Source of the DNA: Plasmodiophora brassicae
Lineage: Eukaryota
DNA length: 64,000 nucleotides
Direction: 5' to 3'
Assembly: GCA_036867785.1 (NCBI GenBank)
Contig: CP145416.1
Location: 1,178,001-1,242,000, forward strand
Below the pieces are notes generated by a model that was given only the letters and a program-made list of their open reading frames with translations, made no database searches and was not told the origin of the DNA. Below are positions 1 to 62,089 of this stretch, piece after piece; position 1 is the stretch's first letter, and every line of letters begins with the position of its first letter. The position numbers and the translations under genes were made by a program.

Positions 1-36
1 CCAAACCGAAGATGGGCTGATACGATCGCCAAGTAG

Positions 37-261
37 GCTCGGTTCTGCTTGAACCTAGTAACAACAGGTGATACGGAGTCCCCGGTCAAGGTTCGCGCTT
101 TCGTTTCCGAACTCTATAGCGCTTTCCAAGTGCTCAACCTGCGAAACGACCTCCTCCGGAAACGGTTCGACTCCATCAAGTACGACCTGCAGAAATTGGA
201 AGGCATCGTATACGACATCAGTATTCGAAAGGATCGGGCCGGGCGTGACCGAGCAACGTAA
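37..261 (+). CDS. TSN: Translin, last exon (5' part lies outside the window)
   Basis: After an acceptor tag (34-36) reads ARFCLNLVTTGD...FQVLNLRNDLLRKRFDSIKYDLQKLEGIVYDISIR, matching the translin C-terminal motif LNLKNDxLRKRxDxxKYD...VYDLSIR. Confidence 0.85.
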   Translation, partial: ARFCLNLVTTGDTESPVKVRAFVSELYSAFQVLNLRNDLLRKRFDSIKYDLQKLEGIVYDISIRKDRAGRDRAT

Positions 262-461
262 TGAACGGTCTGAAGTTATACTCTGCCAATCCCACCGCCA
301 GGCAAACTGCCAGAGGAAAAATGTCGACCGCTCTCTGTACGTATTCGTGCTTTGACGACGCCCTCCAAAAATGGGGCAAACCCAGGGTCAGCACCACTGA
401 TTCCGCGTAACGACCACGACGGCCGCAGTAGCCGGTAGGGGGTGACGGGAGCGATTTCGTC

Positions 462-3269
462 ATGGCGCAACAGCAGCCATCGTACTTCGTCGAGCACCGA
501 CGGGGCGAGGTCGCCGAGCTGCAGACGATGCTTCGGAACCCGAAATTGTCGCCCGAGCGGAAGCGCGGCGTCGTCGAACGCGTCATAGCGTACATGACGC
601 TGGGTATCGACGTGTCGAACCTGTTCACGGATATGATCATGGTATGAGCGCATAGCTCACCCTTGCGTCAAAATACTGACCCGGCAATACAGGCGACGCA
701 CACCAAAGATCTCGTCCAGAAGAAGATGGTATACCTGTACCTGAGCACATATGCAGCGCAGAAACCCGAGATGGCGCTGCTTGCTATCAATACTCTTCAG
801 AAGGATTGCCGCGACGATGATCCAATGGTTCGAGGTTTGGCGTTGAGAAGCCTGTGCACGCTACGGTATGCAATGACATGATCTGCTGATGTATTCTATT
901 TGTTGACACGTTATTGTCCAGTGTCCCCCAGCTTCTCGAATACGTGATGGTCCCCATTCGAAAAGGGTTAAACGACCCGAGCGCGTATGTTCGAAAGGTT
1001 GCCGTCGTAGGATGTGCGAAGATTCACGCGTTGTCACCGGCGACCGTTAAAGGTGACCTAGATCCGCCACGTTCCTACGATACAGGTTAAATGGGTTGCC
1101 GTAGAATCCGACATTGTGGACATATTGTACAACATGCTGAGAGATCGGGATGCTGTTGTAGTCGACAATGCCATCCAGGCTTTGAACAAGTAGGTTGCGA
1201 TTGGCGACGTCGGTCGTTATCCGCGGTCACTTAATTGCAGTCGGTAGCATTCTTGCAGATGAGGGTGGCATGGCGATTAACAAGCAGATCATCTTCCATT
1301 TGCTCAACCGGATCCGAGATTTTCATGAATGGGGGCAATGCGTCGTTCTGGAACTTGTTGCGCGTTATGTCCCGGAAACATCAGATGAAATGTTCGACAT
1401 TATGAACCTCCTTGAGGACCGTCTGAAGCACGCTAACAGCGCCGTTGTAATGGGCACTGTCAAGGTGTTTCTCTACTTCACCCAATCGATGCCACAAATC
1501 CACCGCGGTGTCTTTGAGCGAATCAGGAGTGAGGCCTTCGTAAACGAAAAATGACATCCACGAGCTAACATTGTTCCTCAGCTCCCCTGTTGACCTTTAT
1601 TGGAGGCAATTCCCACCATATATCATATCCCGTCCTGGCACACATCAAACTCCTAATTGTTCGCATGCCGGGCATCTTCGACGACCAGTTCAAGTCGTTC
1701 TTCCTCAAGCATAACGACCCAGTTTGCGTTAAAGTTCTCAAACTCGACGTTCTGTCGCGAATTTCCAACGCGACGAATGCTAGCGAAATCCTCAACGAGA
1801 TCAGCGAATACGTGGCTGATGCAAACACGGGTGTCGCCAGAAAGTCCATTCGCACCATCGGCGCGCTGGCAATCAAAGTTGAAGAGGTCGATGCGGAGCT
1901 GTTGCTCTCACATCATTTTCTACTAACGCTTGATGCAGGTTGCTGACGAAGCCTTTGAACATCTGCTAAGCTTTCTCGACCTGAATATGGAATCGCTGAG
2001 CACCGAAACATGTGTTATCATCAAAGACCTTCTTCGAAAATATCCTGAGCACCACGAGGTCGTCGTCCCTGCGTTGCAACGCATTCTGCGAACTGTCAAG
2101 AGCCCCGAAGGAAAGGTGGCTGTCGTGTGGATGATTGGCGAATATGGAGACGAAATCCCTGACGCACCGTACATTCTTGAAGATTTGATTGATGAGTATC
2201 TTGCTGCTGCAGGCTTCGTGTATTTATCAATTGATTGTTTCCTTTGTAGTTTCGACAACGAGAAATCGTGCCTGGTTAGGTCAGAACTATTGTCATCAAC
2301 GGTCAAACTCTTCTTCAAGCGACCCCCGGAAGTGCAGAAGATGCTTGGGAGATTGCTTCGATCCGCCATCGATGACATGAACCAAGAAGTTATTGTACGG
2401 GATCGCGCACTGCTTTATTATCGCCTTCTTGAGCTCGATGTCGAGCAAGCTGCGCGTGTTATCAACTGTCCGAAGGCATGTGTCGAGTCATTCGCCGAAT
2501 CTGATAGTACCGAACTATCGAATCGCCTGTTTCAAGAGCTCAATACGGTTAGTGTGATGGTCAACGCATCATGTTGCGTATCCTCACCACGTGCATCAGC
2601 TCGCGGTGGTGTACGAGAAGTCGATATGTCCGCCTGCAATGCCGATTGGGTCGCTCTCAATCAGTCCGGGATCTCCGTCGCCATCGCCGGATGCCGAGTT
2701 CAAACAGTCAAAGGTGGCTGAACCAGCACGGCCTCCAGTAGAAGATCTTCTGTCCTTTGGGTTCTCGTCACCTGCTCCTTCGGAGATCGTCAAAGGGCCG
2801 TCCAGTGTAAGCACGGTTTGCCCATAGCTTGGTCCCGACTGACGATAGATTGTACCAGGAGTCGTTTCTGTCACAGCAAGCGTACTGCGATGCAGCAACC
2901 TTCCAAACCCAATGGGGGACGCTAAAGACCGCAGACACTATCAGGAGAACGCTGCAGGCTGGGCAGGACCCCAATGCCGTTGAGCACGTTCTCAATCAGG
3001 CACGAATTGTCACGATCGCATCCGGGACCCTCGATGGCCACCTGAAAATGTACTTCTTTGCCCAACACGTGAGATTATCGCCCGCGTCGTGAAGAGCGCG
3101 AATTGACTCCCGATGCCCCTTTCAGGAAATCACGTCCGTGCTCGGCTTCATCGAGGTCGTTATTGCTCTCCAAACCGGCCTTCTTCAAGCTGTGTTCAAA
3201 TCGAGTGACGCCGCGTTCGCCCAACAGCTTGCCCAGCTGGTTGACGAGCTGCTTCAAGGGCGATTCTGA
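462..3269 (+). CDS. AP4B1: Adaptor protein complex beta subunit, probably AP-4 beta; multi-exon
   Basis: [91 protein letters not shown]-terminal appendage exons end at TGA 3267-3269; many short GT-AG introns. Confidence 0.88.
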
Positions 3270-14902: not shown

Positions 14903-15049
14903 CGTACGTGCGCAGTGTGTACGACGGCAGCCCGGTCTTGTGTGGCGGGCGGCCAGAGGAACGTCACCCGTCCGCGTGGGGCTGTGCCAACCCGAAAGGT
15001 TGCCCATCACACGCACGTCACCGAGCAGCAGCCGCAGACGGCCATCCTC

Positions 15050-15996
15050 ATGTCAACCATAACCTGGAGGCAGGCCGCGCTTAATGGTCTCAGTGTAGGA
15101 CGTCAGTCGCGACTCGCTCCCTCTACCAATCGCGCCGCCGGGACCACATTGATCGCACGAAACTCGATGCCGGAGCGCGCTGATGTGGCGATCAGGGAAC
15201 GGAGACAACCCTTTGACCCGTTACAATGATATGGCTGGGAAGGGCACAACTCGATCACACGGATCGCCGGTTTCGGGATCGCCGATCAGTTTGTGCTCTC
15301 CCAGAGTTTGGCTGACCCACGGAAACACAGGCTGTTCCGTGCGATCGTCGTCGAGCTGAGAGCGGCGTTAGCTGAGCTAGACCTATTAGGTCCGGCAACG
15401 CTGATGACTATTTCGTAAGCTGCCGCGGAGGACGTTGCTTGAATTGGCTAGTGTTTAATCCCTTCTCACTCTGTGGTTCATATTCCTCGTGGAACAGTTC
15501 GGTCTGAGCAAAGGATCCGTATGAAACGTCTACCTGGAGCAGTGGATGCAGTCGTCGCTATCGGCGACGATCGGCCGGGTTCCCGGCCAATATGTCGTCC
15601 ACGCGTATCAGCTGATGTTAGCCGCTGCGAGGAACAGGCCGGTTTTCGTTGATGACGTTTTCCAGCATTTATTGAGTATTCCGTTACCGACGCTCGGGTG
15701 ATCACGTATAGCGGATTTCGCTGATTCATACCTAACGAAGCACCGGCAAATTATTCACATACGGCGCATCATCGTCTCCAGGACTCGACGATGCCGGTCC
15801 CCAACTGCCGCTCAGACTGGATGACCGTAATGGCGTCATGGATCTCGGGGTTCTTGACCGTTGCTGCGGGGTACACCTCATGGCCACCCGGCGACGGTCG
15901 CGTGTTGTCGAAACCATTTGAAATCAACGACGTTGTTGACGCTGTTTACCGCACACTCTTATCCGAGGCGCCCGACAAGCGTGTGATTGGGTATTC
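15050..15996 (+). pseudogene. Degraded coding fragment of unknown family, truncated by the large hairpin
   Basis: Protein-like frames continue across in-frame TGA codons at 15227-15229 (PFDPLQ*YGWEGHNSITRIAGFG..) and 15699-15701 (IPLPTLG*SRIADFADSYL); gtaagc donor near 15414. Confidence 0.35.
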
Positions 15997-17154
15997 GGGT
16001 TCAGTTTCCCGCGTTTCTCACGCATTGCAGTGCGGTCGATTATTCGGTTATCGAGGAGATGCGGTCGCTGACTGAACAGGGCGTTTCCGTTGAGGGGTAC
16101 CATCGCATGCTTCTGGAATGACATACTGCCAGGTACTCCCGTTCCCAGATCCAGTGGTTCGGGTCTCTTCAACACTGCACGAAGGGGATTGGGTACGCTT
16201 TCACCAGAGAAATGGGTAATTCTCCCCCTCAGTTTTCATCCTTTGCTGACCCCGACCGTTATAAACGGCTTCGTTCCATCACCTTCGTACCTCAAATACT
16301 GTTTGGTGAAATTCCACGGACAGGTACGACCGCTCATGGACTTCTCATGCAGACCGTCAGTGGCCGAATCTTGAAACTGGGCCATTCCTTCAAGATCCCA
16401 AAATTGATTCGTCGTTTCAACGGCGAGAAGCTTGTTGAGGCCCTGTTCACGCGCTGTAACGAGTTCGACGAGCCGATCGTGGAGATGCTGACGTTCGGGG
16501 CCAGCCTTGCCGAGCTGTTGCCAGCATTGCGCGGCTTCATGAAGCGTATTCTATTGAAGTCGGAAACGAAAAGTGACGGTTCGGGCAAGCCGCTCAATAG
16601 AATACGCTTCATGAAGCCGCGCAATGCTGGCAACAGCTCGGCAAGGCTGGCCCCGAACGTCAGCATCTCCACGATCGGCTCGTCGAACTCGTTACAGCGC
16701 GTGAACAGGGCCTCAACAAGCTTCTCGCCGTTGAAACGACGAATCAATTTTGGGATCTTGAAGGAATGGCCCAGTTTCAAGATTCGGCCACTGACGGTCT
16801 GCATGAGAAGTCCATGAGCGGTCGTACCTGTCCGTGGAATTTCACCAAACAGTATTTGAGGTACGAAGGTGATGGAACGAAGCCGTTTATAACGGTCGGG
16901 GTCAGCAAAGGATGAAAACTGAGGGGGAGAATTACCCATTTCTCTGGTGAAAGCGTACCCAATCCCCTTCGTGCAGTGTTGAAGAGACCCGAACCACTGG
17001 ATCTGGGAACGGGAGTACCTGGCAGTATGTCATTCCAGAAGCATGCGATGATACCCCTCGATGGAAACGCCTTGTTCAGTCTGTGACCGCATCTCTTCGA
17101 TAACCGAATTGTCGACCGCACTGCAATGCGTGAGAAACGCGGGAAACTGAACCC
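15997..17154. repeat. Large inverted repeat IR1: 561-bp arms (15997-16557 / 16594-17154), 36-bp spacer
   Basis: Mirror ORFs 16212..16817(+) and 16334..16939(-) translate identically except across the spacer; symmetry centre at 16575/16576. Confidence 0.97.
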
Positions 17155-17766
17155 AAACAAACTCGGGCAGTTGAGCGAGAAAGCCTTCGTGGTAAGCACT
17201 GAAAGTATACCAAGGGGCCTTGCTACCCTTGCGACGCGTGCAGCGGTACGTCCGCGCAACGATGAAGTAGCATGAATCGCGAGTGACGACACCACGTCGA
17301 TCTGTTGTCCAAGAATGGTGGATGACATTATAGTCACCAGACTTGGCCTGTCGTGTAGACCGTCTCTGCTGACAATGAGGACAATGAATGGGGATATCGG
17401 AGGCCTCGTCTCCGGATCCCACACAAACACGTCGTAGACGTAGAAGCGATCCGGACCCCGAACAGCGCTGACGCACGGCCGCTCAACCAAAACGGACCCA
17501 AAGTTGTCCAGAGCGAAGAAGTGTGAGAATGGAGCTGTCGACGCTCTTGGCGTTCTCTAGGATGGTGTCCAGGACATTCCGCATTATAGGCGATGCGGCA
17601 TCACCTTTCTTGCCCTTCTTGCCGCGATTCCCACCTGTTACACTTCAGTGACAATATTTACATGCCCGTAGGCCAGCACAGCACTGTGGATGACGACCTT
17701 TCGTGACTTGTTCGTTGATCCTGGCTTGCGTCCCGCTCCAGGTCGGTAACCGCCGCGACCGCCCAT
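16558..17766 (-). pseudogene. Transposase-like pseudogene (DUF6729-like Cys domain followed by MULE-like DDE start)
   Basis: MGGRGGYRPGAGRKPG N-terminus; VFVWDPE..CPHC..YFIVARTYRC..FLAQLP..FPAFLTH..E*H; GRILKL(G)HSFK..NEF..PSLFVSD; internal stops and frameshifts. Family assignment is from recalled motifs. Confidence 0.65.
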
Positions 17767-17898
17767 CCCGCAACTGTTTGCCCGGGTCAGAGATCGCCTT
17801 GCAGCAGTGCAGCTCCAAGAAAATGCGGGCTCGTGCAACAAAAAACCATGGCGTATGTAGGAAAACTTTTACGCAACGAATCAAAAGTCAGACGCCGA

Positions 17899-18207
17899 CA
17901 GACGACGAAGTGGGGGTCGATTCCGAAGACGGTGATGACGCTGGAGCCAGCGATCGAGTATGTGATGAGTCCGCAAATCGGGCCGCGATGCAAGGAGGTC
18001 ACGACCCGGCGCCACTGCAGCCGCCTTGGCCGTCATCGGACCCAGGCCAATCTTCCTCGGGAGACGCCTCGCCAGTTGAGTCTGACGAAGATTCATCCGG
18101 ATCGTGACCTCCTTGCACCGCGCCCCGATTGGAGGACTCGTCACGTTCTCGATCGCTGCCTCCAGCGTCATCACCGTCTTCGGAATCGACTCCCACTTCG
18201 TCGTCTG
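17899..18207. repeat. Inverted repeat IR2: 111-bp arms (17899-18009 / 18097-18207), 87-bp spacer
   Basis: cagacgacgaagtggg..gtcacgacccgg mirrored; about 10 mismatches, no indels; arms encode acidic DDEVGVDSEDGDDAG. Confidence 0.93.
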
Positions 18208-18322
18208 CGGCCAGTTTCTGCCTCTCACCGATCTGATGAAGGTAATCACAGGTTGTTTGCGAGAAGTCGTCACTGCCAGAATCATCATCGTTGTCGCGGT
18301 GCTGGTCGGTTAGGCGTACAGG

Positions 18323-18516
18323 AACCCCGGAACTATCGCACAGTAATACCATGGGTGCAGGTCGCAAGGCGTCGCCACTGGACAGGTCCGGGGGCAGGAC
18401 AGGGACCAGCGCCAAGTTGACTTTGCGCTGGTCCCTGTCCTGCCCCCGGACCTGTCCAGTAGCGACGCCTATTGCGACCTGCACCCATGGTATTACTGTG
18501 CGATAGTTCCGGGGTT
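18323..18516. repeat. Near-perfect 194-bp palindrome IR3 with almost no loop
   Basis: aaccccggaactatcgcacagtaataccatgggtgcaggtcgcaa... mirrored; one 2-bp indel and about 2 mismatches; centre aagt-tg-actt. Confidence 0.96.
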
Positions 18517-18652
18517 GTTTTCGAGCTTTTCACACAGGCGCCTCAGTCTCGGGCCATGCCATCGCTGGGCGGCAAGTGGTTGCAACGAGAAGATGAGGAG
18601 GGCGCCGCTGAGCCTTCAGCTGCACCGATGACGACGCGCGTGCTGGCGCATC

Positions 18653-18920
18653 GACCAGCAGCTTCAGCTAGTTGCTCAGCACGTTGATCCAACACGTAAG
18701 GTCATCGCGGAGAACATGGATCTCGGCCTTGTTTAGCCATATGTCCGTATCTTCATTGAGAACCAATTGGGGACATAAGACTTCGAGGAGCGCCTCGGGG
18801 CACTATATGTACAAGCCGAGGAAGTTGATCTTGATGAGGAGGAGGCCGAGATCCACGTTCTCCGCGATGACCTGTGCGTGTTGGATCACCGTGCTGAGCA
18901 ACTAGCTGAAGCTGCTGGTC
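18653..18920. repeat. Inverted repeat IR4: ~77-bp arms (18653-18729 / 18843-18920), 113-bp spacer
   Basis: gaccagcagcttcagctagttgctcagcacg..gatctcggcct mirrored; 3 mismatches and one 1-bp indel. Confidence 0.92.
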
Positions 18921-26601: not shown

Positions 26602-27603
26602 TTATGTATTTCGATGCTGCGCCTCGTGGAGGCCAGCGACCAGCAAGGCCAGGTCACCATCGGTCAGCTTTCGTATGTCGCCGATTAGCTGCAGGACGGT
26701 CGCCAGGATGGTGGCCTCCATGATGACGCTGACCGTTTCAAAGACCACTAGGTCGCTTGATGGGCACGCTGCAATCGAATAGATACGATAAGCTCCGTTT
26801 GAGGCCGCGTATAAACTAGCGGGATAATATCAGGACACTGCATCGAACACTGCCGCTTGGTGCCCCTTCTGTACCTGTACAGGGCCAGCAGCGAGATCCG
26901 GTAGAATTTGGCGCCGACGTATGCGACGACCGGGACGATTGAGACGGCAACGACGATGACGTACTGAACGGTGCCGCCGGTCAGAGGCCATAGGAGATAG
27001 ATCACGGTGTACCACAAGACAATCGTGTCGATGCCAGCCAGGATCAAGACTGCCCTACTGTGCCGGTACGCGGTCAGTGCACTCCCATTATCGTCCTGAG
27101 CTGCTTCGTCTGAGGCATCGGGTGCGTGTTGTCGCACGCTTAGCACCGTCGAGGTTCCCGTTAGGCGGGGCGACAATCCAACGTTAATCTCCTGCCTTAT
27201 CTGGCTCTGTTGCGACGTGTACGGCACAGCCACCTGTGTCACGGTGAGTGTTCGTTAACCGGATTGCATTGTACTGGTGTGAACATGCTAATACAGGCGG
27301 TGGGTTGGAGTCTTGCGTGTTCTGCTCAATCAACTGTTCCTGCATCATGCGAGATGATGCCACGTCGCTGGCATGACTATCGGGTCGCACGACCAGTTGC
27401 ACAATAGCGCCGTCGACGACGCCGTTGGCTGCCAGCGCTGCGTTATCGCTAAGCTCGCGCCCGGCGAGAATGATTCGTTGGAGATGCAGCGGGACACTGA
27501 GCTGTTGCTCGATGCCACGTTTCAAGTCGAGCACCGTCCCTGACTCGTCCACGCTGTGCACCGTCACCGTCCGACCGGACACGCTGCGTACAGACACCAG
27601 CAT
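26602..27603 (-). CDS. Ubiquitin-like domain + ~4-TM protein, paralog A
   Basis: MLVSVRSVSGRTV..TVLDLKRGIEQQLSVPLHLQRIILAGRELSD (Ubl); TM region with AYVGAKFYRISLLALY; last exon ends DLALLVAGLHEAQHRNT*. Confidence 0.8.
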
Positions 27604-28642: not shown

Positions 28643-29644
28643 TTATACACTGGACTGTGAATGTCGTTGTTGGACCTCGTGGACGCCGGCGACCAGCAGG
28701 GTCAAGTCACTGCCGGCCAGCTGTCGTATGACGCGGATGAATCGCAGAGTAATCGCCAGGATAATGAATTCCATGACGACGCCGATCGACTCGAAGAAGA
28801 CAACGATGCCGCCGGATGAGTACGCGGCGATCAAATAGATACGATACACCGCGTTGACGGCCACGTAGGCACTGCACGGGTGGATCCCATCAGGGCACGA
28901 GATGACGCTTGGGGTGACGTTTCTACCTGTATAGGGCTAGCAACCCGGTCCGGTAGAATTTGGCGCCGACGTACCCGACGAACGGGACGATGAAGGCGGC
29001 AACGAGGACGACGTACTGGACGATGCCGCCGACAAGCGGCAGCCGAAGGAAGATCAGCGCGTACCACAGGACGAACGTGTCGATGAGGACGAACATGATC
29101 ACCGTCTTGCTGTGCACGTACGCTGACAGCGCTTTCATATCGTCGTCCTGCGTTGCGCGTCAGACGCAGCGGTGGCGCATGGCGCATGCTTAGTACCGCC
29201 GAGGTTGTCGACATGTGCGACGACACACCCGCGTTCAGCCGTTGCATCACCTGGATCTGCTCCAACGTGTACGGCACAGCCACCTGCGCAGGGGTGAACG
29301 TTCACCAAAGGGATATGCTGTAATGGTCTTCTTACAGGTTGCCCGTTGGGGTCGTGGGCCGCCTGCTCGATCTCGTGTTCCTGCATCATGCGAGCGAACG
29401 CTTCGTCGCTGACAGGTCTATCGGGTCGCACGACAAGTTGCACGAGGGTGCTGTCGACGATGCCGCTGGCGGCCAGCGTAGCGTTATCGTCAAGCTCTCG
29501 CCCGGCGTAAATGATTCGCTGCAGGTGCGAGGGGACATTGTGCTGGTGCTCGATGCTTCGCTTCAGGTCGAGAACCGCCCCCGATTCGTCGACGTTGTGC
29601 ACCGCCAGCGTCTGACCAGTCACGCTGCGTACCGACACCAGCAT
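28643..29644 (-). CDS. Ubiquitin-like domain + ~4-TM protein, paralog C
   Basis: MLVSVRSVTGQTL..LQRIIYAGRELDD; FVLIDTFVLWY..GYVGAKFYRTGLLALY..DLTLLVAGVHE; clear DNA similarity to paralog A. Confidence 0.82.
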
Positions 29645-29699
29645 TGTTGCTGTCTGCTGGTCGTTAACCGGCACGCGTGCCACAGTGCCCTGTCACGAA

Positions 29700-29708
29700 A
29701 TGACTCAT
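29700..29708. promoter_or_regulatory. ATGACTCAT site upstream of paralog C
   Basis: Same 16-mer at a similar distance from the ATG as for paralog A. Confidence 0.35.
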
Positions 29709-30037
29709 TCATCGACCGTGCATTCCGCCATCGTCCGTCGCGAGATACCCCTTCAGTCAGCGTCCACAGGTGTGTCTCGAATTTCCAGACAAACGACGGC
29801 AATGGCAACCGCCATTTTCTGTCTCCTTTACCCAATGCCGGCTTCCCTTCAGGGTGTATCAGCTGGGTCAGATCCGGGGTCCACAATGACTCACGACTAC
29901 GACAGATGGTCCAATGTCTTGGAAGTGGCGTTGGGCCAGTTGAGTCAACCCGGCGACAAACGAGAATTTCCCACTGTAATTGCAGATCGAGTGTCGCACC
30001 GACGATCGCAGCCGGCTCTGCGGCCGCTGGTCCGCCT

Positions 30038-30922
30038 ATGCGCCTGAACCTTCGTAGCGTGACCGGGCAAACGATTGTCGTCGATGGGATCGACGCCACA
30101 GGGACCGTTGCGGATCTGAAGAAGACCATCGAGACGCAGCAGAACATCCCACGGGAGTTGCAGCGGTTGATCTATCGAGGTCGGGAGCTGTGCGACGGCA
30201 AGGCGATTGCCGAATCGGGCGTGGCAGATGACGACGTTCTGCACCTTGTCATGCGCCCGCAGCGCGAGCTGACGGATGCCGACGTTGCTGAACTGCTCCA
30301 GGACGACGATTCAGCGCCTCACCCGCCGTCCATGGTCATTCACATGACGCCCTTGTACCAGGTGACGGCGCTGATACCTGCGCGTCCCCTATCAGTTGAC
30401 CCTGACTATGCTTCGTAGGTGCCGGACCGCTTCGACCATGGATTATCGGGCCTGTCGCTTCGTGCACGGAAAGTCTACAAGCGGTCGTTGGACGTCCGGA
30501 TCCTGGCCATCACGAACTTTGTCATCCTATGGGTATCCATGCTGATGTACAGCCCGATCCTGGTCCTGGTGTCGCTGTTCTCCTTAATGGCATACTGTAC
30601 GTATTGTAGTCGCCTCGTCAGCCGGGCATCGACTGATCCCATGTCGGTAGTCGGAGCGGCGACGTACCGGGTCTGGATACTGTACGCGTACCAGGTGGTG
30701 ACGGTGGCGATCGCGTCGTTCACGATGGTGAGGATGGGGCAGAACCGTATCGCCTGGTTCGTTGGCATGGTGGTGTTCCTCGTGCACGCCCACATTATCG
30801 TCCAAGTCCAGCTGTTCATCTGGGCCATACACAAGCTGTCGCCCGAGGAGGTTGTCCAGCTCAGGACGCTCGAGCACCCCCGTGGTGACCTTCCTCTCCA
30901 GCCTGCTGAGCCTGCCGCCTAG
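30038..30922 (+). CDS. Ubiquitin-like domain + ~4-TM protein, paralog D (divergently transcribed)
   Basis: MRLNLRSVTGQTI..TVADLKKTIETQQNIPRELQRLIYRGRELCD; ILAITNFVILW..GAATYRVWILYAY..IHKLSPEEVVQL. Confidence 0.8.
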
Positions 30923-31115
30923 TCGACAGTAAACCACAATATCGGAGCACCCGGGAGCCGGGTTGTGATATGTCGCCCAGTGGGACTCATGCGTGGTGAG
31001 CCCTGCCCCTGTCCCGTTGACTCAACAGATTGAGGGGAAGGCACACAGGTGTCAGTGCAACTGTGAAGTATCGACCCGACACAAGTAACTAGTCGAATCT
31101 TTTCACAGGCGCGCT

Positions 31116-32780
31116 ATGCGGCGAATAGGATTCTCGCTCAAGGCGGTCGCGTTACTCGCGATTCCAGCGCTGATCACGTTGGCATCGTCGCAGCCCGTAT
31201 TTGTCAATAACGGCGGCCAGCCAGACCAGGAGATCCAGCATTTCCTTAATGCCCTCAACCTGGAACGTCCCGGCGACGTCGTGACTCTCGAGGATCCCCA
31301 GGAGAGCCCGTCAGCAGGATCCTCAACGTCGCCTGAACAGCCCACTCCCGCACCGACTCCGAGTCCCACTCCGGCGCCAAGTACTGTCTTCCCGCCGCCT
31401 CCCCAGGTGCCGCTGGCACTCGCTGACACGCCACGTGCACAACTGCCAAGTCCTCAACCGACTCCTGTGCCCACCCCAAAGCCAACCCCGGTTCCACCTC
31501 CAGGTGTAACCCCAGAGCCGACTCCTGCGCCAACTCCAAGGCCCACGCCGGCACCAACGCCAGTACCAACTCCAGAGCCAACCCCGGCGCCTACCCCAAG
31601 GCCAACCCCGGCACCTACTCCAAGGCCAACCCCGGCACCTACTCCAAGGCCAACCCCGGCACCTACCTCGAGTCCAACGCCAGCGCCGACTCCTAAGCCG
31701 ACACCAGCTGCAACCCCTGCGCCCACTCCAGAGCCAACCTCGTCGTCGACTGCAGCGCCCACTCCAAAACCCACTCCCGCGCCTACTCCGAATCCCACCC
31801 CAGCTCCTACTCCGAACCCCACTCCAGTGCCAACTCCTGCTCCAGTGCCAACTCCTGCGCCAACCCCGGCGCCTACTCCTGCGCCAACTCCAGCGCCAAC
31901 TCCAAAGCCTACCCCTCAACCAACTCCGGCGCCTACTCCAGCAACTACTACCCCAGCACCAACGCCAGCGCCGACCCCTAAGCCAACGCCAGCGCCGACC
32001 CCGAAGCCAACGCCAGCGCCGACCCCAGCACCAACGCCAGCGCCGACCCCAGCACCAACGCCAGTGCCGACCCCGAAGCCAACGCCAGCGCCGACCCCGA
32101 AGCCAACGCCAGCGCCGACCCCGAAGCCAGCGCCAGCGCCGACCCCTGAGCCGACGCCAGCAACTACTCCAAAGCCAACTCCGGCTCCTACTCCAGAGCC
32201 AACCCCAGCGCCTACTCCAAAGCCGACTCCAACGCCCACTCCAAAGCCAACGGCGGCTCCTACTCCAGAGCCAACCCCAGCGCCTACTCCAAAGCCGACT
32301 CCAGCGCCCACCCCAAGGCCAACTCCAGCGCCTACTCCAAAACCAACATCAGCGTCTACACCTACGCCAACGCCTGCGCCTACACCTGCGCCTACACCTG
32401 CGCCAACGCCTGCGCCTACACCTGCGCCAACGCCTGCGCCTACACCTGCGCCAACGCCTGCGCCTACACCAAAGCCAACACCTGCGCCGTCACCAAGGCC
32501 AACCCCAGCGCCAACCCCTGCGCCTACACCAAGGCCAACGCCAGCGCCAGCGCCAACTCCAGCGTCCACACCAAGACCCACCCCAGCGCCGACTCCAAAG
32601 CCCACCCCAGCGCCGACTCCTGAGCCAACCCCAGCGCCAACCCCTCTGCCGGAGCTTACTCCTATGCCGACGCCCAGTTCCTTGACGCGCTCTATCTTCG
32701 ACGCTGAGCGCGACAGCATTCTCAAGAGGTTGTCAGATGGCCGTGCTGGGCACCGCCATAATAGCCTCTTCTTCATGTAA
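31116..32780 (+). CDS. Secreted Pro/Thr/Ala-rich repetitive protein (extensin/mucin-like), 554 aa
   Basis: Signal peptide [25 protein letters not shown]; more than 400 aa of [16 protein letters not shown] repeats. Confidence 0.88.
31340..32680 (+). repeat. Coding tandem repeat, 12/24-nt units (PTPx)n
   Basis: Blocks such as ccaacgccagcgccgaccccgaag (~31960-32160) and cctgcgcctaca/cctgcgccaacg (~32370-32470). Confidence 0.9.
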
Positions 32781-36264: not shown

Positions 36265-39200
36265 ATGTTATTTCCACTTCCAGAGCAGCAGCGCCCGCGT
36301 CCAGAATCACTCGAACATGACCTCGACCTGTTGTTTTCCTTGAAAGACAACACCGTCCGAATGATCTGCGACTTTACGTAAACGACTGGTCGCCCGTGCT
36401 TCTCGCCCACAGAATCTCCAGCCGCGTCACTCTTGGACGCGGTGCCGTTTCGCCGTGTGCACTTGCAGAACGCTGTGTTCGACCAAGCCGTTCGCCAGAT
36501 GCGGCGCTTATCACTTGGGCTGCGAACTCGGTGAACCACCCGTCCGTTCCGTTGCCACAAATGAAGTGACTGCGCAGGGTAGCTGCACAGTCCGTCGTCG
36601 TTGTCGCTGACGATGTCGTCGTTCCAGGAGACGCAGGATTGTCTGCGTACGCCATCGAGTCGGCTGGCGAAGAGCTCGACGCCGCCTACGGATGCGGACG
36701 CGGGCGACGCCCCGTTCGAAGAGGCGGTGTCGCATGCGATCGTGTTCGGCGCCCGTGCGCATGATGCCGTCTGCCGTGCCCAATTCCACCTGTCTATCCT
36801 GGGGAAATTGGTGCATCCTGAACCAGAAGCGACGTGCAGTGATTCATTTCGCATTGCGTTGCTTTGCGACGGCGATGGTCGGGCAGTGGCCCACGGGCGT
36901 GTCATGCCCACGACACAAGTGCATTTTGTATCCGCATCCTACAACTGTGTCATCATCCTTGATATGTCGACTTCAATGGCGTCAGCGTTGGCGGAAGCGG
37001 GGAGCGGGTCCGTCAGTTTAGACAGGGCATTCGCCTGTGTGACACAGATCGTCAAGATCCTAATCGCATGCGCTGATTACATTCCGCACGATCCGTCGGC
37101 AGCTTCCTCGTCCCGCATTCTCCTATCGATCATTGCATGCGACCATTCCAACGTGCTGAGGTCCATCCTTCACGGGTGGCCGTTGGCCCGCGACCATCTT
37201 CCCGAACTACTGCGCATCATTGACAAACGGCTGTCTTCATTGGAGAACGAACTGTCTCACGTGCATCCCGATCCGTCGTCGAATGACGCCTCATTCATGC
37301 TTGCGTCCATGTTGCTGACACACGACCGCCTGCCTGGAGATCGTGCGCCGATATCGTTCTTTGTCACTGACGGGGTGCTTACTGCGCCCGACATCGGAAC
37401 GTTTGACAATGTGTTCACGTCAATTGCCGCCAAAGACATTGCTGTTCATACTGTACTGCTGCACCGCCACTCCGGTCACTTTGGGTTTATTCCAGATCCC
37501 GATTTTCTTGTCATGATATCGCAGTACTCTGGTGGTGTTCATCTTTCCGCATCTGATCTCGACGCATTTGATCTTCGCACACGCGAGTCGCTGTTTGGCG
37601 GGTCGTACTCCCCTCTCCTACTTCGGCAGTCGGCGCTCTGTAAGTCGGCGTTGCCGTTCATATCTGGAGCGCCATGCAGTGAACCTACCAACTGGGGTGG
37701 CCCTTTATTCTGCCTCAAAATCAAGGAGTATCTTTTGGATGTCAGCATCGGGTCACTGTTGCTCTGTCGTATCAAGGAAGGGTTTAAATGTGGCCAAACG
37801 ACCAACCTTAAAGGCGGCGGATTTTCTCTATCCATGACCCTTGTGTGGAAGCCGATCGTTACGGTTGATTATGTAATCGAGAAGCGTCTTCACGAGAATC
37901 CCCGCGTCATTGTCAAAGTCATTGCGTACGTTGTTCTTTGTTCAAAATGCTTCATACTCTCATTCGCATGATAGACCAGACGAGTTCCTGCGACGTTTGC
38001 AAATCCTCCAGAAGTCGAAAAAGAATCGAGGGCCAGTTATGACAATCAATTCAGGCGTTGCCGCACCCCCGCCTCTGGTGCTGCTCGAGCGACTGACGAA
38101 TCTTGTGAAGACCGACCAGCTGTTGATTCTTCTCCATTCGCTACGGCCCGATGATATCACAGGCTCCACACTTTCAACGTAGGACAGACGTGCAGCGTGA
38201 TGTTGTTTCTCTGACCCAGCTCTGCGCCAGCCTGAGACAGCGAGGCGAACCCGATCTACGCCTTGTGCGGTCTCTATCTGGAACTGGGCGCAACGCAAGC
38301 GAAAGGTCTTTCTCGGCGTCGCAACCTCCTCAGGTTTGGATACTATCTAGCATCGGGATTGTCAAGACAAGTGCCCTCTGACGAAATTTGCCGTTCAGGA
38401 GTCTCCAGCTCTTTTAAAGATAATCGCAATGCCGCCTACATCTTGGAAGCGCTGGTTTTCTGTCACGCGCCTAGACTTTTTCTGCACGTCTCGTTGCCGC
38501 GATAAGGTCTTTGCCAAGTTGCGCTTCTTCCAATGTCATTCGTCCTGACTCAACTGACTAGAAGAAACATCGATCTAGCTGCACTGATTTTGATAGCAAT
38601 AAGGACATCATACATGCTGCTCTAACGACGTGGAGCTCCTCTGTCCATGGGAACCTTTACGTAAAGCTCCTTGCAGCTAGAGAATCGCTGGCTCCTCAGA
38701 ACGAGTGAGCGTCGCTAGACCCCCGCATTTCGAGAGCCACTGACCTGACACTAGGCTGGACATCCACTTATGGAGTGCCGGTGCATCAAAGCCATTGCCG
38801 ATCTGTCTGGCTCGCATATTCTGGCACAGCAACATTCTCGCGTCATTATACGTAGGGGTTTTTACAGTTGGAGGTGCACAGGCGGACGTGGAGATTGCCC
38901 ACATCAAGGTTCATGGGACATGGATTGTTTACGTTCTGTTCTGACAGAATTGTTTCAAGACGCTTATAGCAAACTGCCGGCCAAGCGGATCTGGTTCCGA
39001 ATCTGAACCTTGGATTGTCTTTCCATCTACGCCACTGAGTCCTGTCCTGCTCAAGTTGGATCCGTCGGACGCCGTCTTCAGAAATGTCCACGTAATCGTC
39101 ACAACTAGTAAGATGTTTCGTTGACTTCCTCCCTCAGGACGTAAAGCGTGTAAAGTTCCCGCTCGAGTCAGCCCCACTGAACGGCAACGCCTTCGTCGAG

Positions 39201-42200
39201 CTACCTTCTTCAGTTTCTCTAAATACCACGCTGCTCGCGCGGTCCAGAAGCAATCCTAATCTTGCTTCGTTGGGCATGTCGAGAGAGGTGTCCCCTGTGT
39301 CAGCTGCGGGCTCTTCTTCTACTACGAAACCTCCATCGCCGCAACATAATGACCCGAGCCGTGAATCTGTCGAGTCCAGTCTTCCTAAGTCCGTCCTGCG
39401 GTCGTTCATGTACAGCGCACAGCGCACATATAGGACGCAGAACACTGAGTAGGTGCATTGTCCCTGGTAACGTTGCATGCTCGGTCGATGATGACTCCTT
39501 TAGAATGCTGCGCTGTTTCTTTGCCCACATCAATGACGCGCGACATCGTGATGGCTTCGACCTGCTGTTTGCCGATGAGTTGTCATTCACGTATTGTTTT
39601 GAAATATCCCTACCGACGGGTGTCTCAGCGAACCTCCAGTACGCGGTCTGCTTGGTTTCTTCAGTTGATGTCGGTCATTTTGAAGACATGTTGATGGCAA
39701 TGTCTAAATGGAACGCAACAGGTCTTGGTGGAAGTGTGGCTGGATCCTCTCGATACTGCAGAAGTATCTTGTCGGTCCTTATTCCAAACAATCATGGACT
39801 ACTTTGACAAATCCGACAAACTGACACTTCAGTCTCTCCAAGTCTTCCACAGTATTCAAGACGCTCACCGCAACAACGTGCTGTCGTTGCGGGGTTCTCG
39901 TCGGGTTGAGCAAAGTCACATGAATGCTGTCTTCAGATACAGTAGTCGATCGCGTCACTCGCGATGCGCAGTCGAAGACTTTCGTGTTCAGGAATTTCCC
40001 TTCGATATACTTCCGTTAATGCGAAACGCAAGACCTTGTTTCGTTCCTCTTCGCTTTCCACACGGTCGTAACCTACCGCCCACATGGTTGTATTGTTTGC
40101 TCATACTCGTTGAATCTAGGCCTTGCTGTGTCACAGACGTGCGTGTTGGAGTCTTTATGCCGAATCCCGTCCATCGTCGAGGTAGTGCCTGGCGCATGTT
40201 TCGCTCAGGTCGTCGACAGGAAGACTGTAACTCTTGCCTTGCTGACTGCCGACGTCGATACATCTGGTAATTTACGTGCAGACTGGTTGCTCGGCATGAT
40301 TCTAACTGAGTAAGGCCTTTAGTGGCGTCGCTGGCATCCGACGTCAAATCCTTGATGGCGTATGCCAAGGAAATACTAGACCGTTTATGTGGAGACGCTG
40401 ATCGTCGTGAGAGCGAAAACATTGTCCTCATCTTTGAGGTTGCTCTGGAAGACATCTTGGACTCCAAATCTGAACTCAGAAACGTCGTCGCAAACTTGAT
40501 AAAATCAGGCGCATCTGCTATAGAGTCAAATGCTGTTTATCAGCATGAATGCCATCACTCATCAGCTCTGGTCAGTGCTGTGTATGTCCATGTGCTGATG
40601 TTCTTTTAAACATGGCCGGTAGAACATGCTTCGTGACCTAATCGAGCACCTCCATTCAATTTATTTCGCCCAGGAGGTGTTCTCGAATCTCTCACATGGG
40701 TCGAACGTATCAGACGATGATGTCAACGCGGTAGCTTTAGATCTTTTCATTCACCCGACCTCGCAATGATACTGTCTCCAGGTCGTCTCTTCGCTTGTCG
40801 ATTATTCTAATCACATCAATATTACAAGCGTTATTTGCAATGGCGCTGATTACCAAGCTATGTCGGCGTCGCTCGACAAAATCATCAGGGAATGCCTTCG
40901 CGCAGTAACTAGCAGCTCAGATGATTGGGCGACGCCGACATACTTCATCTTCGTTGATGGGAATGGTTTGCAAGAATCTGCGCGTCATTAAGTAACGATG
41001 ATTCTGATTCCGTGCGTGTGACAGAGTTTCATAACGATGACGCTGCGGATACTGATGATGATTCGGACGACCTTGCTCCAAACGTTTCGAGAGCTGGAAG
41101 TCGGGCAGAGCACTTGCTAGACGTAGGCTGAGTGTATTGCTGTAATGGAACTGGGCTTGACGTTCGACACAGCCCTCAATTCCGGATGCAGTACCGTTCT
41201 GCATGCGGTTCGAAGTTGTGGTCCGCAGTGACGACCGCGTCCTTGCCACAATTCCGATTTCGTCTGGGTCAAGTTCGAGTGCTGCATTCGACCAGGCGCG
41301 CCAATCTGCCAGGGATGCTGCCCAAGACGGAACGGCTCCGGTGGTCTTCATGCGAATAACATGTTGCACTTTTCGGTTCCGCGAATGGTGTCTTGGCTGT
41401 CTGTGCGTTGTATGCTCTTGACGCTTACTGCCGTGCTGTCTAACAGGGAAAGCTATCGTTTCGGTGTGGATCCAGATGTGTCCACTGGTCTTCGGAAGAG
41501 CACTTCGATGTCGGCGTTATCGTCTGCGTCGACTTCTCCGATATCTATGAGACGCCTGAAACTTGGCGGGTTCTCTGTGCTTCCAGAACCTTTGTCCAAG
41601 CAGATGGCTAGAGTATGTCAGAACAGGGTAATTCGCAAACTTCCCCGGATGTCAACAGCTATCATGTTTTAGATATCCAAGCAAATCCGGAGCATGTTTG
41701 CAGACCAAGTTCTTCGAAACCTACAGAAACAGGTCGGTGTCTACGATGTAGATTTGTAAATTGTCCCAACTGAAAACGAGCTGTTTTCAGCTTGGCACGA
41801 ATTGGTCACCCGACAATGTAACTGAAGAGCTGCTCACGGATATCCAGCTACATATGGGTCGGCTTAGAGACACACATAAGCTACAGAAACGCATCCCCAT
41901 CGATTTTGTTTCTCCTGGTTTGGTCAGTCTGCATCCATGTCAGGCAGTTTCTTGCCATATTCACATCGATGTCTTAGGCCACGGCATCCATGTTTCTGAG
42001 GGAGTTTGGAGCCAATCATATAATCAGTGTTCACAAGGTTGGTAGCCTTGTATTTGCACTTCGACCACCTCCGTGGCTTCTGGTAATATTCAGTGAGTCA
42101 CTGGAAATCGCGCATATCGTCTTGCACAACTCGTTAATCGACGATCAAGCTGCGCTTGCCACTATTGCGCTTGTGCAGGACGCGCTATATGCAACTGTTC

Positions 42201-46395: not shown

Positions 46396-46481
46396 CGAAC
46401 CCCGACTATATTTATTGTTGTATCCGTTCGTACGTCATCGCCTTGCCGTTTAGTTCGAGTCGGCGAGCTGAACCGTGCACG

Positions 46482-46799
46482 CTATTGACTGCTGGCACTG
46501 CAGACGGCCTGGCTGTCCATGTTCGGGTTCGTCGGCGCCCTGCGCTCAACGTCGTGGCGTATGTCGATCAGGATGCCGGCGGCGCGGTTCACGACCGAGT
46601 CCACCCGCAGGGGAACCCGATCGGCACATGCCCATCCGGATCGATGGCATCGCGGGCACGGCCGTTGATTCGAGCACCGCAGCTTCGCCCTTGCGCACCG
46701 TTCGCAGGCCCGCTTCGTACTGTACCGAGCTGGCGACAGCGGCGAGTGCCCGCCCATCTCGGTCGCTGCGTGCCCATCGTCGTCGTGCTGTCCGCTCAT
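46482..46799 (-). CDS. Small Zn(II)2Cys6 zinc-cluster protein (~105 aa)
   Basis: RACERCARAKLRCSNQRPCPRCHRSGWAC fits C-x2-C-x6-C-x5-C-x2-C-x6-C. Confidence 0.85.
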   Translation of the reverse strand: MSGQHDDDGHAATEMGGHSPLSPARYSTKRACERCARAKLRCSNQRPCPRCHRSGWACADRVPLRVDSVVNRAAGILIDIRHDVERRAPTNPNMDSQAVCSASSQ

Positions 46800-46918
46800 C
46801 ACTGTGCGCCCTTGCACGACCGCCTCTGCCGTGTCGCGCAGGGTCGGCAGGCTCGGCGAACGATCGTTCGAGAACAAGCACGCGTTCTAGACGCGCGGTG
46901 CCGCCGCCGCCGCCCCAT

Positions 46919-48573: not shown

Positions 48574-48579
48574 GGCCCA

Positions 48580-48884: not shown

Positions 48885-49023
48885 GTCACACCAGCGTGGT
48901 GTAAACATGGGTGGCCCTGCTGTGTATCTGCAATTGGACATTGATGCGCGAGGTCCACGTGCCGTATTCGCAACATCGTACCGGCTGCAATCGGGTACAC
49001 TTGCCGACCGGCCGAATCTGGGC

Positions 49024-51558: not shown

Positions 51559-51629
51559 CCCGTCCCCATCGCATACAGACACGGGTCGGCCGGGGGGACG
51601 GAGGGGGCTGGACGTCGTGCTGCATCGGT

Positions 51630-58591: not shown

Positions 58592-58630
58592 CGGGTCGTG
58601 TACTCAGTGGCTGTCGGTCCACGTTCGCGG

Positions 58631-62050: not shown

Positions 62051-62089
62051 CCGCCTTGGTCCGCGCCTGCGTTTATTAGGGCGCCCGCC

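What the first reader, a model, noticed from the sequence alone, without database searches (positions are those of the whole stretch)
15997..17154. 1.16-kb fold-back of a dead transposase: candidate Mu-killer-type hairpin silencing locus
Seen: two 561-bp arms around a 36-bp spacer, made entirely of transposase-like coding sequence. The minus-strand gene reads through the spacer (..LSGLPEPSLFVSD) and then turns back on itself. Both arms share the stop (E*H), the apparent frameshifts and a Gly where a DDE Asp is expected (ILKL-G-HSFK). Established: maize Mu killer is an inverted duplication of part of MuDR whose hairpin RNA silences the family in trans. Inference: transcription from the element's own promoter (upstream of 17766) or from the + strand fragment at 15050 would give ~560 bp of dsRNA against this family.
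Basis: partly seen in the sequence, partly recalled or inferred. Interest (0 to 1): 0.85.

Follow-up and report, generated by a model that had tools for sequence, protein, structure and literature searches.

The report
Fold-back of a dead transposase gene
A broken copy of a transposon gene in what is most likely the clubroot parasite Plasmodiophora brassicae has been folded back on itself into a 1.16-kb hairpin-forming repeat that is transcribed, making it a plausible but unproven source of silencing RNAs.

Summary
Arms 15994-16557 and 16594-17157 (564 nt) flank a 36-nt spacer. There are 10 mismatches, all in the outer 107 nt. The arms are a degenerate gene of the DUF6729 + WRN-type exonuclease family. 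Its fold resembles an IS256/Mutator-like DDE transposase. The Gly replaces an Asp kept in 141 of 142 relatives.

The spacer is the gene's natural continuation, so the left arm is the copy. A third fragment abuts it, which points to a multi-breakpoint fold-back rearrangement.

Short-read contigs from other studies bridge both outer junctions. None of the pieces shown bridges the central junction.

The closest paralogue is named Plasmodiophora brassicae. That organism has Argonautes and a Drosha-like enzyme that cuts long dsRNA, but no RdRP, and the origin of its siRNA precursors is an open question (PMC13547706). A run holding spliced RNA carries contigs on the locus.

Small RNAs were not tested. 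No near-identical target copy was found. The Mu killer analogy is therefore structurally apt but functionally unproven.

Three more palindromes lie directly upstream, and no others occur in the 64 kb.

The parts
15878..15993 (+). Displaced fragment of the same gene family (P0002 residues 507-545, the start of the exonuclease domain), abutting the left arm out of gene order
   Evidence: tblastn 87% identity over 39 aa. In runs X9 and X14 a contig matching up to 15994 continues with other letters that translate to DQEWDVVMTR, close to P0002's own continuation (DQEWDVVMSR). A further copy therefore exists elsewhere.
15994..16557 (+). Left arm: inverted copy of the gene segment equal to P0002 residues 145-331
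   Evidence: The outer junction at 15994 is bridged by X3 record 16 (15000-16026) and X15 record 11 (15498-16033).
16558..16593 (-). 36-nt spacer. On the minus strand it is the natural continuation of the gene (..SGLPEPSLFVSD) and ends at an Asp that is invariant in the family (D344 of P0002)
   Evidence: BLASTP to P0002 runs to residue 344. D344 is kept in 112 of 112 aligned relatives and is invariant in A1. X15 record 13 covers 16559-16830.
16594..17157 (-). Right arm: the original gene segment, continuous with the 5' part of the gene
   Evidence: The outer junction at 17157 is bridged by X14 record 6 (17112-17437).
17158..17766 (-). 5' part of the degenerate gene, up to the candidate start codon (17766-17764). 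It has a further in-frame stop (about 17483-17485) and two more frame changes (about 17460 and 17405)
   Evidence: Ungapped tblastn by frame against P0002. N-terminal likeness to P0003. Contigs of X15 (holds spliced RNA) and X14 (labelled RNA?, unconfirmed) reach 17725-17755.
16769..16771 (-). Gly codon (mirror 16380-16382 on +) at the position of the family's near-invariant Asp (D274 of P0002), on the first strand of the predicted RNase H-like core
   Evidence: D in 141 of 142 relatives, invariant in A1. Model strand 270-276.
17030..17032 (-). In-frame TGA (mirror 16119-16121 on +) where P0002 has Trp. DUF6729 homology continues across it
17894..18211 (.). Second palindrome: arms 17894-18009 and 18097-18211, 87-nt spacer, 10 mismatches
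18323..18516 (.). Third palindrome: arms 18323-18417 and 18420-18516, 2-nt spacer, 2 mismatches. It forms a near-perfect hairpin
   Evidence: RNA fold of 18323-18470 gives -123.8 kcal/mol, z -16.09. Only sub-threshold miRNA-precursor-like Rfam matches.
18653..18920 (.). Fourth palindrome: arms 18653-18729 and 18843-18920, 113-nt spacer, 3 mismatches

Best explanation
This is a genuine inverted (fold-back) duplication inside an already degenerate copy of a DNA-transposon gene. The gene belongs to the DUF6729 + WRN-type 3'-5' exonuclease family, whose core looks like an IS256/Mutator-type DDE transposase. The genome is most likely that of Plasmodiophora brassicae.

The minus-strand copy (17766 down to 16559) is the original. 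After residue 344 the sequence turns back and copies residues 331 to 145 in antisense. It then jumps to an antisense piece of residues 545-507, and then to unrelated DNA. This three-breakpoint pattern is inferred to come from fold-back or template-switching repair, not from two separate insertions.

The locus is transcribed (shown for one run with spliced RNA). A read-through RNA in either direction would form a 564-bp stem (computed). This organism is reported to lack an RdRP and to cut long dsRNA into 21-nt siRNAs with a Drosha-like enzyme. The inferred consequence is that the hairpin is diced into siRNAs.

Any action on other copies of the family is probably weak, because no near-identical copy was found. 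So it works like a Mu killer-type hairpin in structure. Silencing in trans is not shown.
For: Structure:
-.
- The spacer is the natural gene continuation, and identity to P0002 is 232 of 289.
- DUF6729 hit at 45.8 bits against a cut-off of 27, running across the TGA.

Family:
- 10 of 11 long relatives scanned carry DUF6729 plus DNA_pol_A_exo1 at E <= 0.001. Two of them have DUF6729 below Pfam's own cut-off.
- D274 is kept in 141 of 142 and D344 in 112 of 112 relatives.
- The model (pLDDT 81.9) has the strand-strand-strand-helix-strand order, with D274 on strand 1 and D344 after strand 4.
- ISCth4 (IS256) transposase matches at Z 11.4, rmsd 5.6 A, 341 aligned. It is the first row that is not an exonuclease or polymerase.

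Reality of the locus:
- 20 of 24 listed runs, from 10 studies, hold half or more of the sampled words.
- Contigs bridge 15994 (X3, X15) and 17157 (X14).
- No joint or loose end is listed at 16558 or 16594 in any of the 4 runs laid.
- The window's own ORFs P0004 (through the hairpin centre) and P0154 (right arm) are on record on contigs of 1,371,253 and 1,084,683 bp, so two assemblies hold the locus.

Transcription:
- X15 has a contig with a 63-nt skip whose ends read GT..AG on the minus strand, so it holds spliced RNA.
- The same run has contigs on 15498-16033, 16559-16830, 17000-17147 and 17211-17725.

Folding: MFE -1207.5 kcal/mol for 15950-17200 on the minus strand.

RNAi context, from PMC13547706 (abstract, section 2.2, Discussion and find passages read):
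- Two AGOs.
- PbDRL cuts long dsRNA.
- No Dicer and no RdRP.
- The source of siRNA precursors is called unclear.
- sRNA loci lie mainly in intergenic regions, then in transposable elements.
- A palindromic region yields miRNAs.
Against: - No small-RNA data could be laid on the locus.
- No listed contig spans both arms or the fold-back junction itself (16557|16558). 31 pieces were listed and 50 were not shown.
- Contigs give no strand.
- The organism is inferred from the name of an 81%-identical paralogue, not from the window itself.
- The only full-length close relative found in 1.84 billion representatives is 81% identical in protein. The next is 45%. Perfect 21-nt matches to targets may therefore be few.
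- A related copy appears in run X14 (labelled RNA?, unconfirmed) as contigs of 1486 and 647 nt that share only 51-54 nt with this locus. It does not look shut off, although contig depth cannot rank expression.
- The template-switch origin is inferred. Microhomology at the breakpoints could not be checked without the parental copy.
Confidence: 0.5

Rival explanations
1. Inert scar. The fold-back is real, but it is only a rearrangement relic of a dead transposon. It may be transcribed at a low level, but it yields no meaningful small RNAs and has no effect on the family or on neighbouring genes.
For: - The gene is heavily degenerate: at least 2 stops, at least 4 frame changes, and loss of the near-invariant Asp.
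- No near-identical target was found.
- Transposable elements are 11-14% of these genomes, and more than half of the structural variants overlap them, so such scars are expected (passages of bioRxiv 10.64898/2026.10.14.759018).
Against: - The locus carries contigs from a run holding spliced RNA, including spacer plus right arm.
- In a cell reported to have a dsRNA-cutting RNase III and Argonautes, a transcribed 564-bp perfect stem would be expected to be processed (PMC13547706).
- The 457-nt perfectly identical core beside a 9% diverged outer part suggests continued arm-to-arm homogenisation, not simple decay.
Confidence: 0.3
2. True Mu killer-type silencer. siRNAs from the hairpin silence intact members of the DUF6729-exonuclease transposon family in trans, and the locus is kept because of that.
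For: - Same architecture as Mu killer, a partial inverted duplication of a transposase gene read from a nearby promoter (abstract of PMC3440606 as shown in the search listing).
- The element's own 5' end and start codon are retained.
- Stretches of 19-24 identical residues are shared with P0002.
- The RNAi pathway has no RdRP, so hairpins are a natural trigger.
Against: - The closest full-length paralogue is only 80-81% identical in protein.
- Contigs of a related copy are present in run X14 (labelled RNA?, unconfirmed).
- There are no sRNA, methylation or expression comparisons.
- The family looks very small here. Three loci were seen: this one, P0002, and the copy behind the loose ends. Selective benefit is therefore doubtful.
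Confidence: 0.12
3. Assembly artefact. A chimeric fold-back long read created the palindrome, and the real locus holds only one arm.
For: - None of the pieces shown bridges the junction 16557|16558.
- The inner arms are 100% identical, as a fold-back read artefact would be.
- The ORF through the centre (P0004) is on record from one contig only.
Against: - The left arm has its own outer junction (15994) and its own diagnostic bases, seen in short-read contigs of other studies: X3 record 16, X15 record 11, X14 record 3.
- The right arm's junction is bridged by X14 record 6.
- The centre bin 16521-16637 has depth in X3, X9 and X15, with no loose end or joint there.
- An artefact would not produce 10 arm-specific differences confined to the outer 107 nt.
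Confidence: 0.05

Closest known systems
Maize Mu killer (Muk)
   Same: A partial inverted duplication of a transposase gene that can be read into a long hairpin RNA (abstract of PMC3440606 in the search listing). Here the gene also appears to belong to the Mutator/IS256-like DDE group.
   Different: - Muk has about 4 kb of hairpin with TIR copies, is read from a flanking gene, and is proven to give siRNAs and heritable silencing.
- Here the stem is 564 bp, made from an already dead copy.
- The nearest known target is only about 81% identical in protein.
- No sRNA or silencing data exist.
- The host's RNAi is reported to lack Dicer and RdRP (PMC13547706).
Long inverted repeat / hairpin-RNA (hpRNA) endo-siRNA loci, such as Drosophila hpRNA loci and the collections in LIRBase
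   Same: A genomic long inverted repeat with a short spacer whose transcript is a ready-made dsRNA, independent of any RdRP (abstracts of PMC5392987, PMC10292708 and PMC8728187 in the search listing).
   Different: Those loci have mapped siRNAs and, in some cases, defined targets. This one has neither.
Palindromic sRNA-generating regions of P. brassicae (PMC13547706, legend of Fig. 2G)
   Same: The same likely organism, and a palindromic genomic region as sRNA precursor. Four palindromes are clustered here.
   Different: The paper's region yields miRNAs, and its coordinates are not in the main text. Whether it is this locus is unknown. Tables S6-S9 could not be opened.
Inverted duplications made by alternative transposition of Ac/Ds, which trigger siRNA silencing
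   Same: A rearranged DNA-transposon copy with inverted duplicated parts (abstract of bioRxiv 10.1101/2020.01.07.897926 in the search listing).
   Different: There the rearrangement comes from transposase acting on element ends. Here no element ends were identified, and the breakpoints lie inside the coding sequence.

Membership tests
Mu killer-type transposon-derived hairpin silencer | Inverted duplication of part of the transposase gene of a transposon family | tested here: met
   Arms of 564 nt equal to P0002 residues 145-331 in both orientations.
Mu killer-type transposon-derived hairpin silencer | One transcript runs through both arms and gives a hairpin RNA | tested here: inconclusive
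   Contigs of a run with spliced RNA lie on the left junction, on spacer plus right arm, and on the 5' part. None spans both arms, and the strand is unknown.
Mu killer-type transposon-derived hairpin silencer | Small RNAs arise from the arms | not testable with these tools
   The single read-laying run was used on contig runs. The supplementary sRNA tables of PMC13547706 are closed.
Mu killer-type transposon-derived hairpin silencer | Intact homologous elements exist that are similar enough to be targeted | tested here: inconclusive
   P0002 (1140 aa, uninterrupted, on another contig) is 80-81% identical in protein. A further copy is seen only as loose ends. No DNA of either copy was available.
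Mu killer-type transposon-derived hairpin silencer | Silencing of the family in trans | not testable with these tools
   This needs expression, sRNA or chromatin comparisons between isolates.
Pfam DUF6729 (PF20499) | Score above the curated cut-off | tested here: met
   45.8 bits against a cut-off of 27, E 7.4e-12, residues 60-191 of the read-through translation.
IS256/Mutator-like DDE (RNase H-fold) transposase | RNase H-like core with conserved acidic residues on strand 1 and after strand 4 | tested here: met
   Model of P0002: strands 270-276, 294-299 and 305-311, helix 316-332, strand 340-343. D274 and D344 are invariant in 40 aligned relatives.
IS256/Mutator-like DDE (RNase H-fold) transposase | Overall fold likeness to a solved member | tested here: inconclusive
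   ISCth4 transposase 6xg8_A: Z 11.4, rmsd 5.6 A, 341 aligned of 401, model range 32..1008. PFV integrase: Z 9.8. The whole 1140-residue model was searched, and the tool warns that middling Z values are common.
IS256/Mutator-like DDE (RNase H-fold) transposase | Third catalytic acidic residue; terminal inverted repeats and target-site duplication; mobility | not tested
   The consensus has ..CxRGTNxxEGxH.. near the C-terminus. Its likeness to the Mutator E-block is recalled, not tested. No genome was available to find element ends.

The most novel reading that the evidence does not exclude
The 2.9-kb run of four palindromes (15994-18920), led by the transposase fold-back, is a dedicated small-RNA-generating locus. 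It would be an RdRP-independent source of dsRNA for the Dicer-less PbDRL/AGO pathway of P. brassicae. Arm-to-arm gene conversion would maintain it, and it would work as a genomic memory against this transposon family. Fold-backs of this sort would then be the missing origin of siRNA precursors in Rhizaria.
Probability: 0.12. Interest if true: 0.75.

Novelty: new member of a known kind. Interest (0 to 1): 0.45.

Why it matters
P. brassicae is reported to run RNAi without Dicer and without an RdRP. The authors state that how its siRNA precursors arise is unclear (PMC13547706, Discussion). A transcribed genomic fold-back supplies long dsRNA without any RdRP, so this locus and the three palindromes beside it are concrete candidates. 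They can be checked at once against existing small-RNA data.

If siRNAs do come from it, the Mu killer principle (a rearranged dead transposon that turns into a trigger against its own family) would extend to Rhizaria. If they do not, the locus is an ordinary rearrangement scar.

The gene family itself has no literature that I could find. It has a DDE core with a WRN-type exonuclease inserted between the second Asp and the C-terminal part. It may deserve description as a transposon group.

Tried and rejected
- Supplementary tables of PMC13547706 (siRNA and miRNA loci) are closed. They may already list this locus.

Searches that found nothing:
- Metagenome scans with P0002 (28 pattern matches, none confirmed) and with a 39-nt stretch across the fold-back junction (0 matches).
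- A full-text search for 'DUF6729' gave 0 papers.
- A search for DNA transposons + exonuclease domain + DDE transposase + Mutator gave 2 papers, seen in the listing only. Neither describes this architecture by title or abstract.

Run evidence that carries no weight:
- The look-up of sequencing runs: no RNA holder listed. X15 was taken as RNA only because one of its contigs is spliced.
- Parts without RNA-contig cover are not evidence: 16228-16999 in X14, most of the inner arms in X15, and 17808-18500 in both.
- Contig depths are one figure per contig, so I give them no weight. In X15 they are 2.9 on 16559-16830 against 64-72 on 17000-17725. In X3 and X9 the arm contigs are at 1.3-2.7 times the depth of the flank contig. 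They show neither copy number nor expression.
- RNA contigs of X14 and X15 both stop at 17000. I read this as a graph branch, 30 nt from a difference between the arms at 17030/16121 seen in X14, and not as an RNA end.
- The 16121 A>G difference (depth 4.44) may be an error.

Fold and family searches that added little:
- Foldseek against the PDB returned only exonuclease domains.
- The protein atlas returned only DUF6729 clusters, all scoring under 0.9.
- A profile search of PDB sequences matched only the exonuclease part.
- Rfam: 19 matches, all below gathering score, all on the hairpin 18372-18465. This is a generic hairpin shape, not family membership.
- The ORF in the second palindrome shows no likeness to P0003.

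Full report
OBSERVATION

The repeat finder reports arms 15994-16557 and 16594-17157, 564 nt, 98% complementary, with 36 nt between them. A base-by-base comparison finds 10 mismatches, all at 15996-16100. The inner 457 nt of the arms are identical, and complementarity ends abruptly outside 15994 and 17157. A self-blastn of the whole 64-kb window on the opposite strand gives only four inverted self-matches. All four lie within 15994-18920. Otherwise the description is accurate.

WHAT THE ARMS ARE

The minus strand carries a degenerate gene.
- Reading its in-frame TGA (17030-17032) as X, the 308-residue translation matches Pfam DUF6729 at 45.8 bits (cut-off 27). The match runs across the stop.
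- A search of 1.84 billion representative proteins gave 457 hits at E <= 0.001, 80 at <= 1e-10 and 3 at <= 1e-30.
- The best hit, P0002 (1140 aa), is 81% identical in that search, and 232 of 289 residues in BLASTP. The second, P0003 (1030 aa), is 45% identical. The third, P0004, is the window's own + strand ORF through the hairpin centre.
- The alignment with P0002 runs to its residue 344, through the spacer (window ..KRILLSGLPEPSLFVSD, P0002 ..KRILLNDLTEPSLFVSD). Right arm plus spacer is therefore the original gene, and the left arm is the copy.

Compared with P0002, the copy has these lesions:
- A stop near 17483-17485.
- Frame changes near 17460 and 17405.
- The TGA where P0002 has Trp.
- Two compensating frame changes near 16890 and 16810.
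- Gly (16769-16771) in ILKL-G-HSFK, where P0002 and P0003 have Asp.

The last four lie in the arms and are present in both.

THE GENE FAMILY

- Of 11 long relatives scanned, 10 carry DUF6729 followed by a 3'-5' exonuclease domain (PF01612) at E <= 0.001. Two of them have DUF6729 below Pfam's cut-off. The eleventh has SH3 domains instead.
- The exonuclease is of the WRN type: profile against PDB sequences E 8e-50, structure Z 25.7.
- The Asp replaced by Gly is kept in 141 of 142 aligned relatives. The Asp that ends the spacer (D344) is kept in 112 of 112. Both are invariant in a 40-sequence alignment.
- An AlphaFold model of P0002 (mean pLDDT 81.9) places D274 on a strand (270-276). Two more strands, a helix and a fourth strand (340-343) follow, just before D344. 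This is the order of an RNase H-like core.
- In a search of 48,161 PDB representatives, the first row that is not an exonuclease or polymerase is the IS256-family ISCth4 transposase: Z 11.4, rmsd 5.6 A, 341 aligned, model range 32..1008. Foamy-virus integrase cores follow at Z 9.7-9.8.
- 'Dead DDE transposase' is therefore a fair description, with the caveat that the whole-model search is only moderately strong. That the C-terminal consensus ..TNxxEG.. recalls the Mutator E-block is my recollection and was not tested.
- No paper mentions DUF6729.

THE REARRANGEMENT

tblastn places three pieces of P0002 in the window:
- Residues 507-545 at 15878-15994 (+).
- Residues 145-337 at 15993-16571 (+).
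- Residues 1-344 at 17584-16559 (-).

Read along the minus strand, the order is sense 1-344, antisense 331-145, antisense 545-507, then unrelated DNA. Two independent insertions would not give this order. A single complex event, with fold-back priming followed by a further template switch, fits best. This is an inference. Microhomology could not be checked without the parental sequence.

The outer 107 nt differ by 9%, while the inner 457 nt are identical. At two diagnostic residues the left arm keeps the P0002 state, and at one the right arm does. This suggests an old duplication whose centre is kept uniform by arm-to-arm conversion. Differences between runs at 16089 (X3, depth 101) and 16121 (X14, depth 4.44, possibly an error) would fit that, tentatively.

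IS IT REAL?

- 20 of 24 listed public runs, from 10 studies, hold half or more of the sampled words of 15400-17800. The two arms share their words, so this alone does not prove a fold-back.
- Among the contigs of four runs laid on 15000-18500:
  - X3 record 16 (a 16.9-kb contig) and X15 record 11 bridge the left outer junction.
  - X14 record 6 bridges the right outer junction.
  - X14 record 3 carries left-arm-specific bases.
  - X15 record 13 covers 35 nt of the spacer plus 237 nt of the right arm.
- The centre bin has depth in X3, X9 and X15. No joint or loose end is listed at 16558 or 16594.
- None of the 31 pieces listed bridges 16557|16558. Another 50 pieces were not shown.
- The window's own ORFs P0004 and P0154 are on record on contigs of 1,371,253 and 1,084,683 bp. 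Two assemblies therefore hold the locus, but it is not known which of them holds the centre ORF independently of the window.
- I put an assembly artefact at about 5%.

ORGANISM AND RNAi CONTEXT

P0002 is named 'SANT domain-containing protein [Plasmodiophora brassicae]' and lies on a different contig of 1,260,905 bp. The runs are an 'organism A', plant metagenomes, and likely host samples. The organism is thus inferred and not proven.

For P. brassicae, PMC13547706 (abstract, section 2.2, Discussion and find passages read) reports:
- Abundant phased 21-nt sRNAs.
- Two Argonautes.
- A Drosha-like enzyme that cuts long dsRNA.
- No Dicer and no RdRP.
- sRNA loci lie mainly in intergenic regions, then in transposable elements.
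- A palindromic region gives miRNAs.
[quoted passage not shown]'

Transposable elements are 11-14% of these genomes and are mostly LTR elements (passages of 10.64898/2026.10.14.759018 and PMC11191646).

TRANSCRIPTION

Run X15 contains a contig of the neighbouring ABC-transporter gene with a 63-nt skip (15062-15124) whose ends read GT..AG on the minus strand, so it holds spliced RNA. The same run has contigs on 15498-16033, 16559-16830, 17000-17147 and 17211-17725. X14, from another study, shows a similar tiling. Contigs give neither strand nor level, and none spans both arms. A minus-strand RNA of 15950-17200 folds into one continuous stem, MFE -1207.5 kcal/mol.

TARGETS

Loose ends in X9 and X14 show a further copy that shares 54 nt (15941-15994) exactly. 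It then continues with DQEWDVVMTR, one residue different from P0002's DQEWDVVMSR at that point. Another stretch shares 17705-17755 with 2 differences. The family therefore has at least three loci. No copy near-identical to the arms was found, and the DNA of the other copies was not available. Whether any 21-nt match exists is open.

SURROUNDINGS

The locus sits in a 5.3-kb gap between an ABC-transporter gene on the minus strand (Pfam ABC_membrane and ABC_tran; 5' end near 15211) and an ELL-like gene on the plus strand (from about 20505).

Directly upstream of the dead gene lie three more palindromes:
- 17894-18211: 115-nt arms, 87-nt spacer.
- 18323-18516: 95-nt arms, 2-nt spacer. The fold of 18323-18470 is -123.8 kcal/mol, z -16.
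- 18653-18920: 77-nt arms, 113-nt spacer.

The third of the four (18323-18516) draws only sub-threshold miRNA-precursor-like Rfam matches.

VERDICT

The structure is real and correctly described. It is a fold-back of a dead, probably Mutator/IS256-like transposase gene. Its transcript would be a ready-made long dsRNA in an organism whose RNAi needs exactly such RdRP-independent triggers.

That it makes siRNAs is a reasonable inference, about even odds together with the rest of the statement. That it silences its family like Mu killer is unproven and, given the divergence of the known paralogue, less likely (about 0.12).

It is a new member of a known kind. Its main value is as a directly testable candidate for the open question of siRNA precursor origin in P. 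brassicae.

Noticed in passing
window 17894-18920: Three further palindromes (arms of about 115, 95 and 77 nt; spacers of 87, 2 and 113 nt) lie in a row just upstream of the dead gene. With the main fold-back they are the only four inverted self-matches in the 64 kb. The one at 18323-18516 is a near-perfect hairpin with the shape of a miRNA precursor. This may be a local hotspot of fold-back formation or a small-RNA locus.
   Followed up: partly
P0002 and relatives: The DUF6729 family has a conserved architecture. An RNase H-like DDE-type core (invariant D274 and D344) has a WRN-type 3'-5' exonuclease domain inserted before its C-terminal part, and its best non-exonuclease structural match is the IS256-family ISCth4 transposase. 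457 relatives were found at E <= 0.001. Atlas clusters come from Mucoromycota, Basidiomycota and Chordata. No paper mentions DUF6729.
   Followed up: partly
window 15062-15124 (minus strand): A 63-nt GT..AG intron near the 5' end of the ABC-transporter gene, shown by a spliced 4041-nt contig in run X15. That contig ends at about 15211.
   Followed up: no
window 16089 and 16121 (mirror 17062 and 17030): Runs differ from the window at sites that distinguish, or in the window unite, the two arms. At 16089, X3 has the right-arm base (depth 101). At 16121, X14 has G (depth 4.44), which would make the left-arm stop codon a Trp codon. Contig breaks at 17000 in X14 and X15 fit a real arm difference there. 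This hints at arm-to-arm gene conversion that varies between isolates.
   Followed up: partly
window 31359-32600: A long array with a 12/24-nt period (67 overlapping copies of the 300-nt reference in the repeat finder) inside an ORF at 31089-32780, in a region of strong negative GC skew. This is probably a repetitive coding region.
   Followed up: no
window 26741-27591 and 28797-29632: Direct repeats spaced about 2.05 kb apart and 70-78% identical (families D2, D3, D5, D7). They suggest a tandem gene duplication. The ORF 29324-30418 carries a ubiquitin domain.
   Followed up: no
window 38000-46000 versus 46000-64000: GC content is 49-52% at 38-46 kb and jumps to 63-70% from 46 kb onward. ORFs at 36583-37971 and 41978-42961 have no Pfam family.
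   Followed up: no
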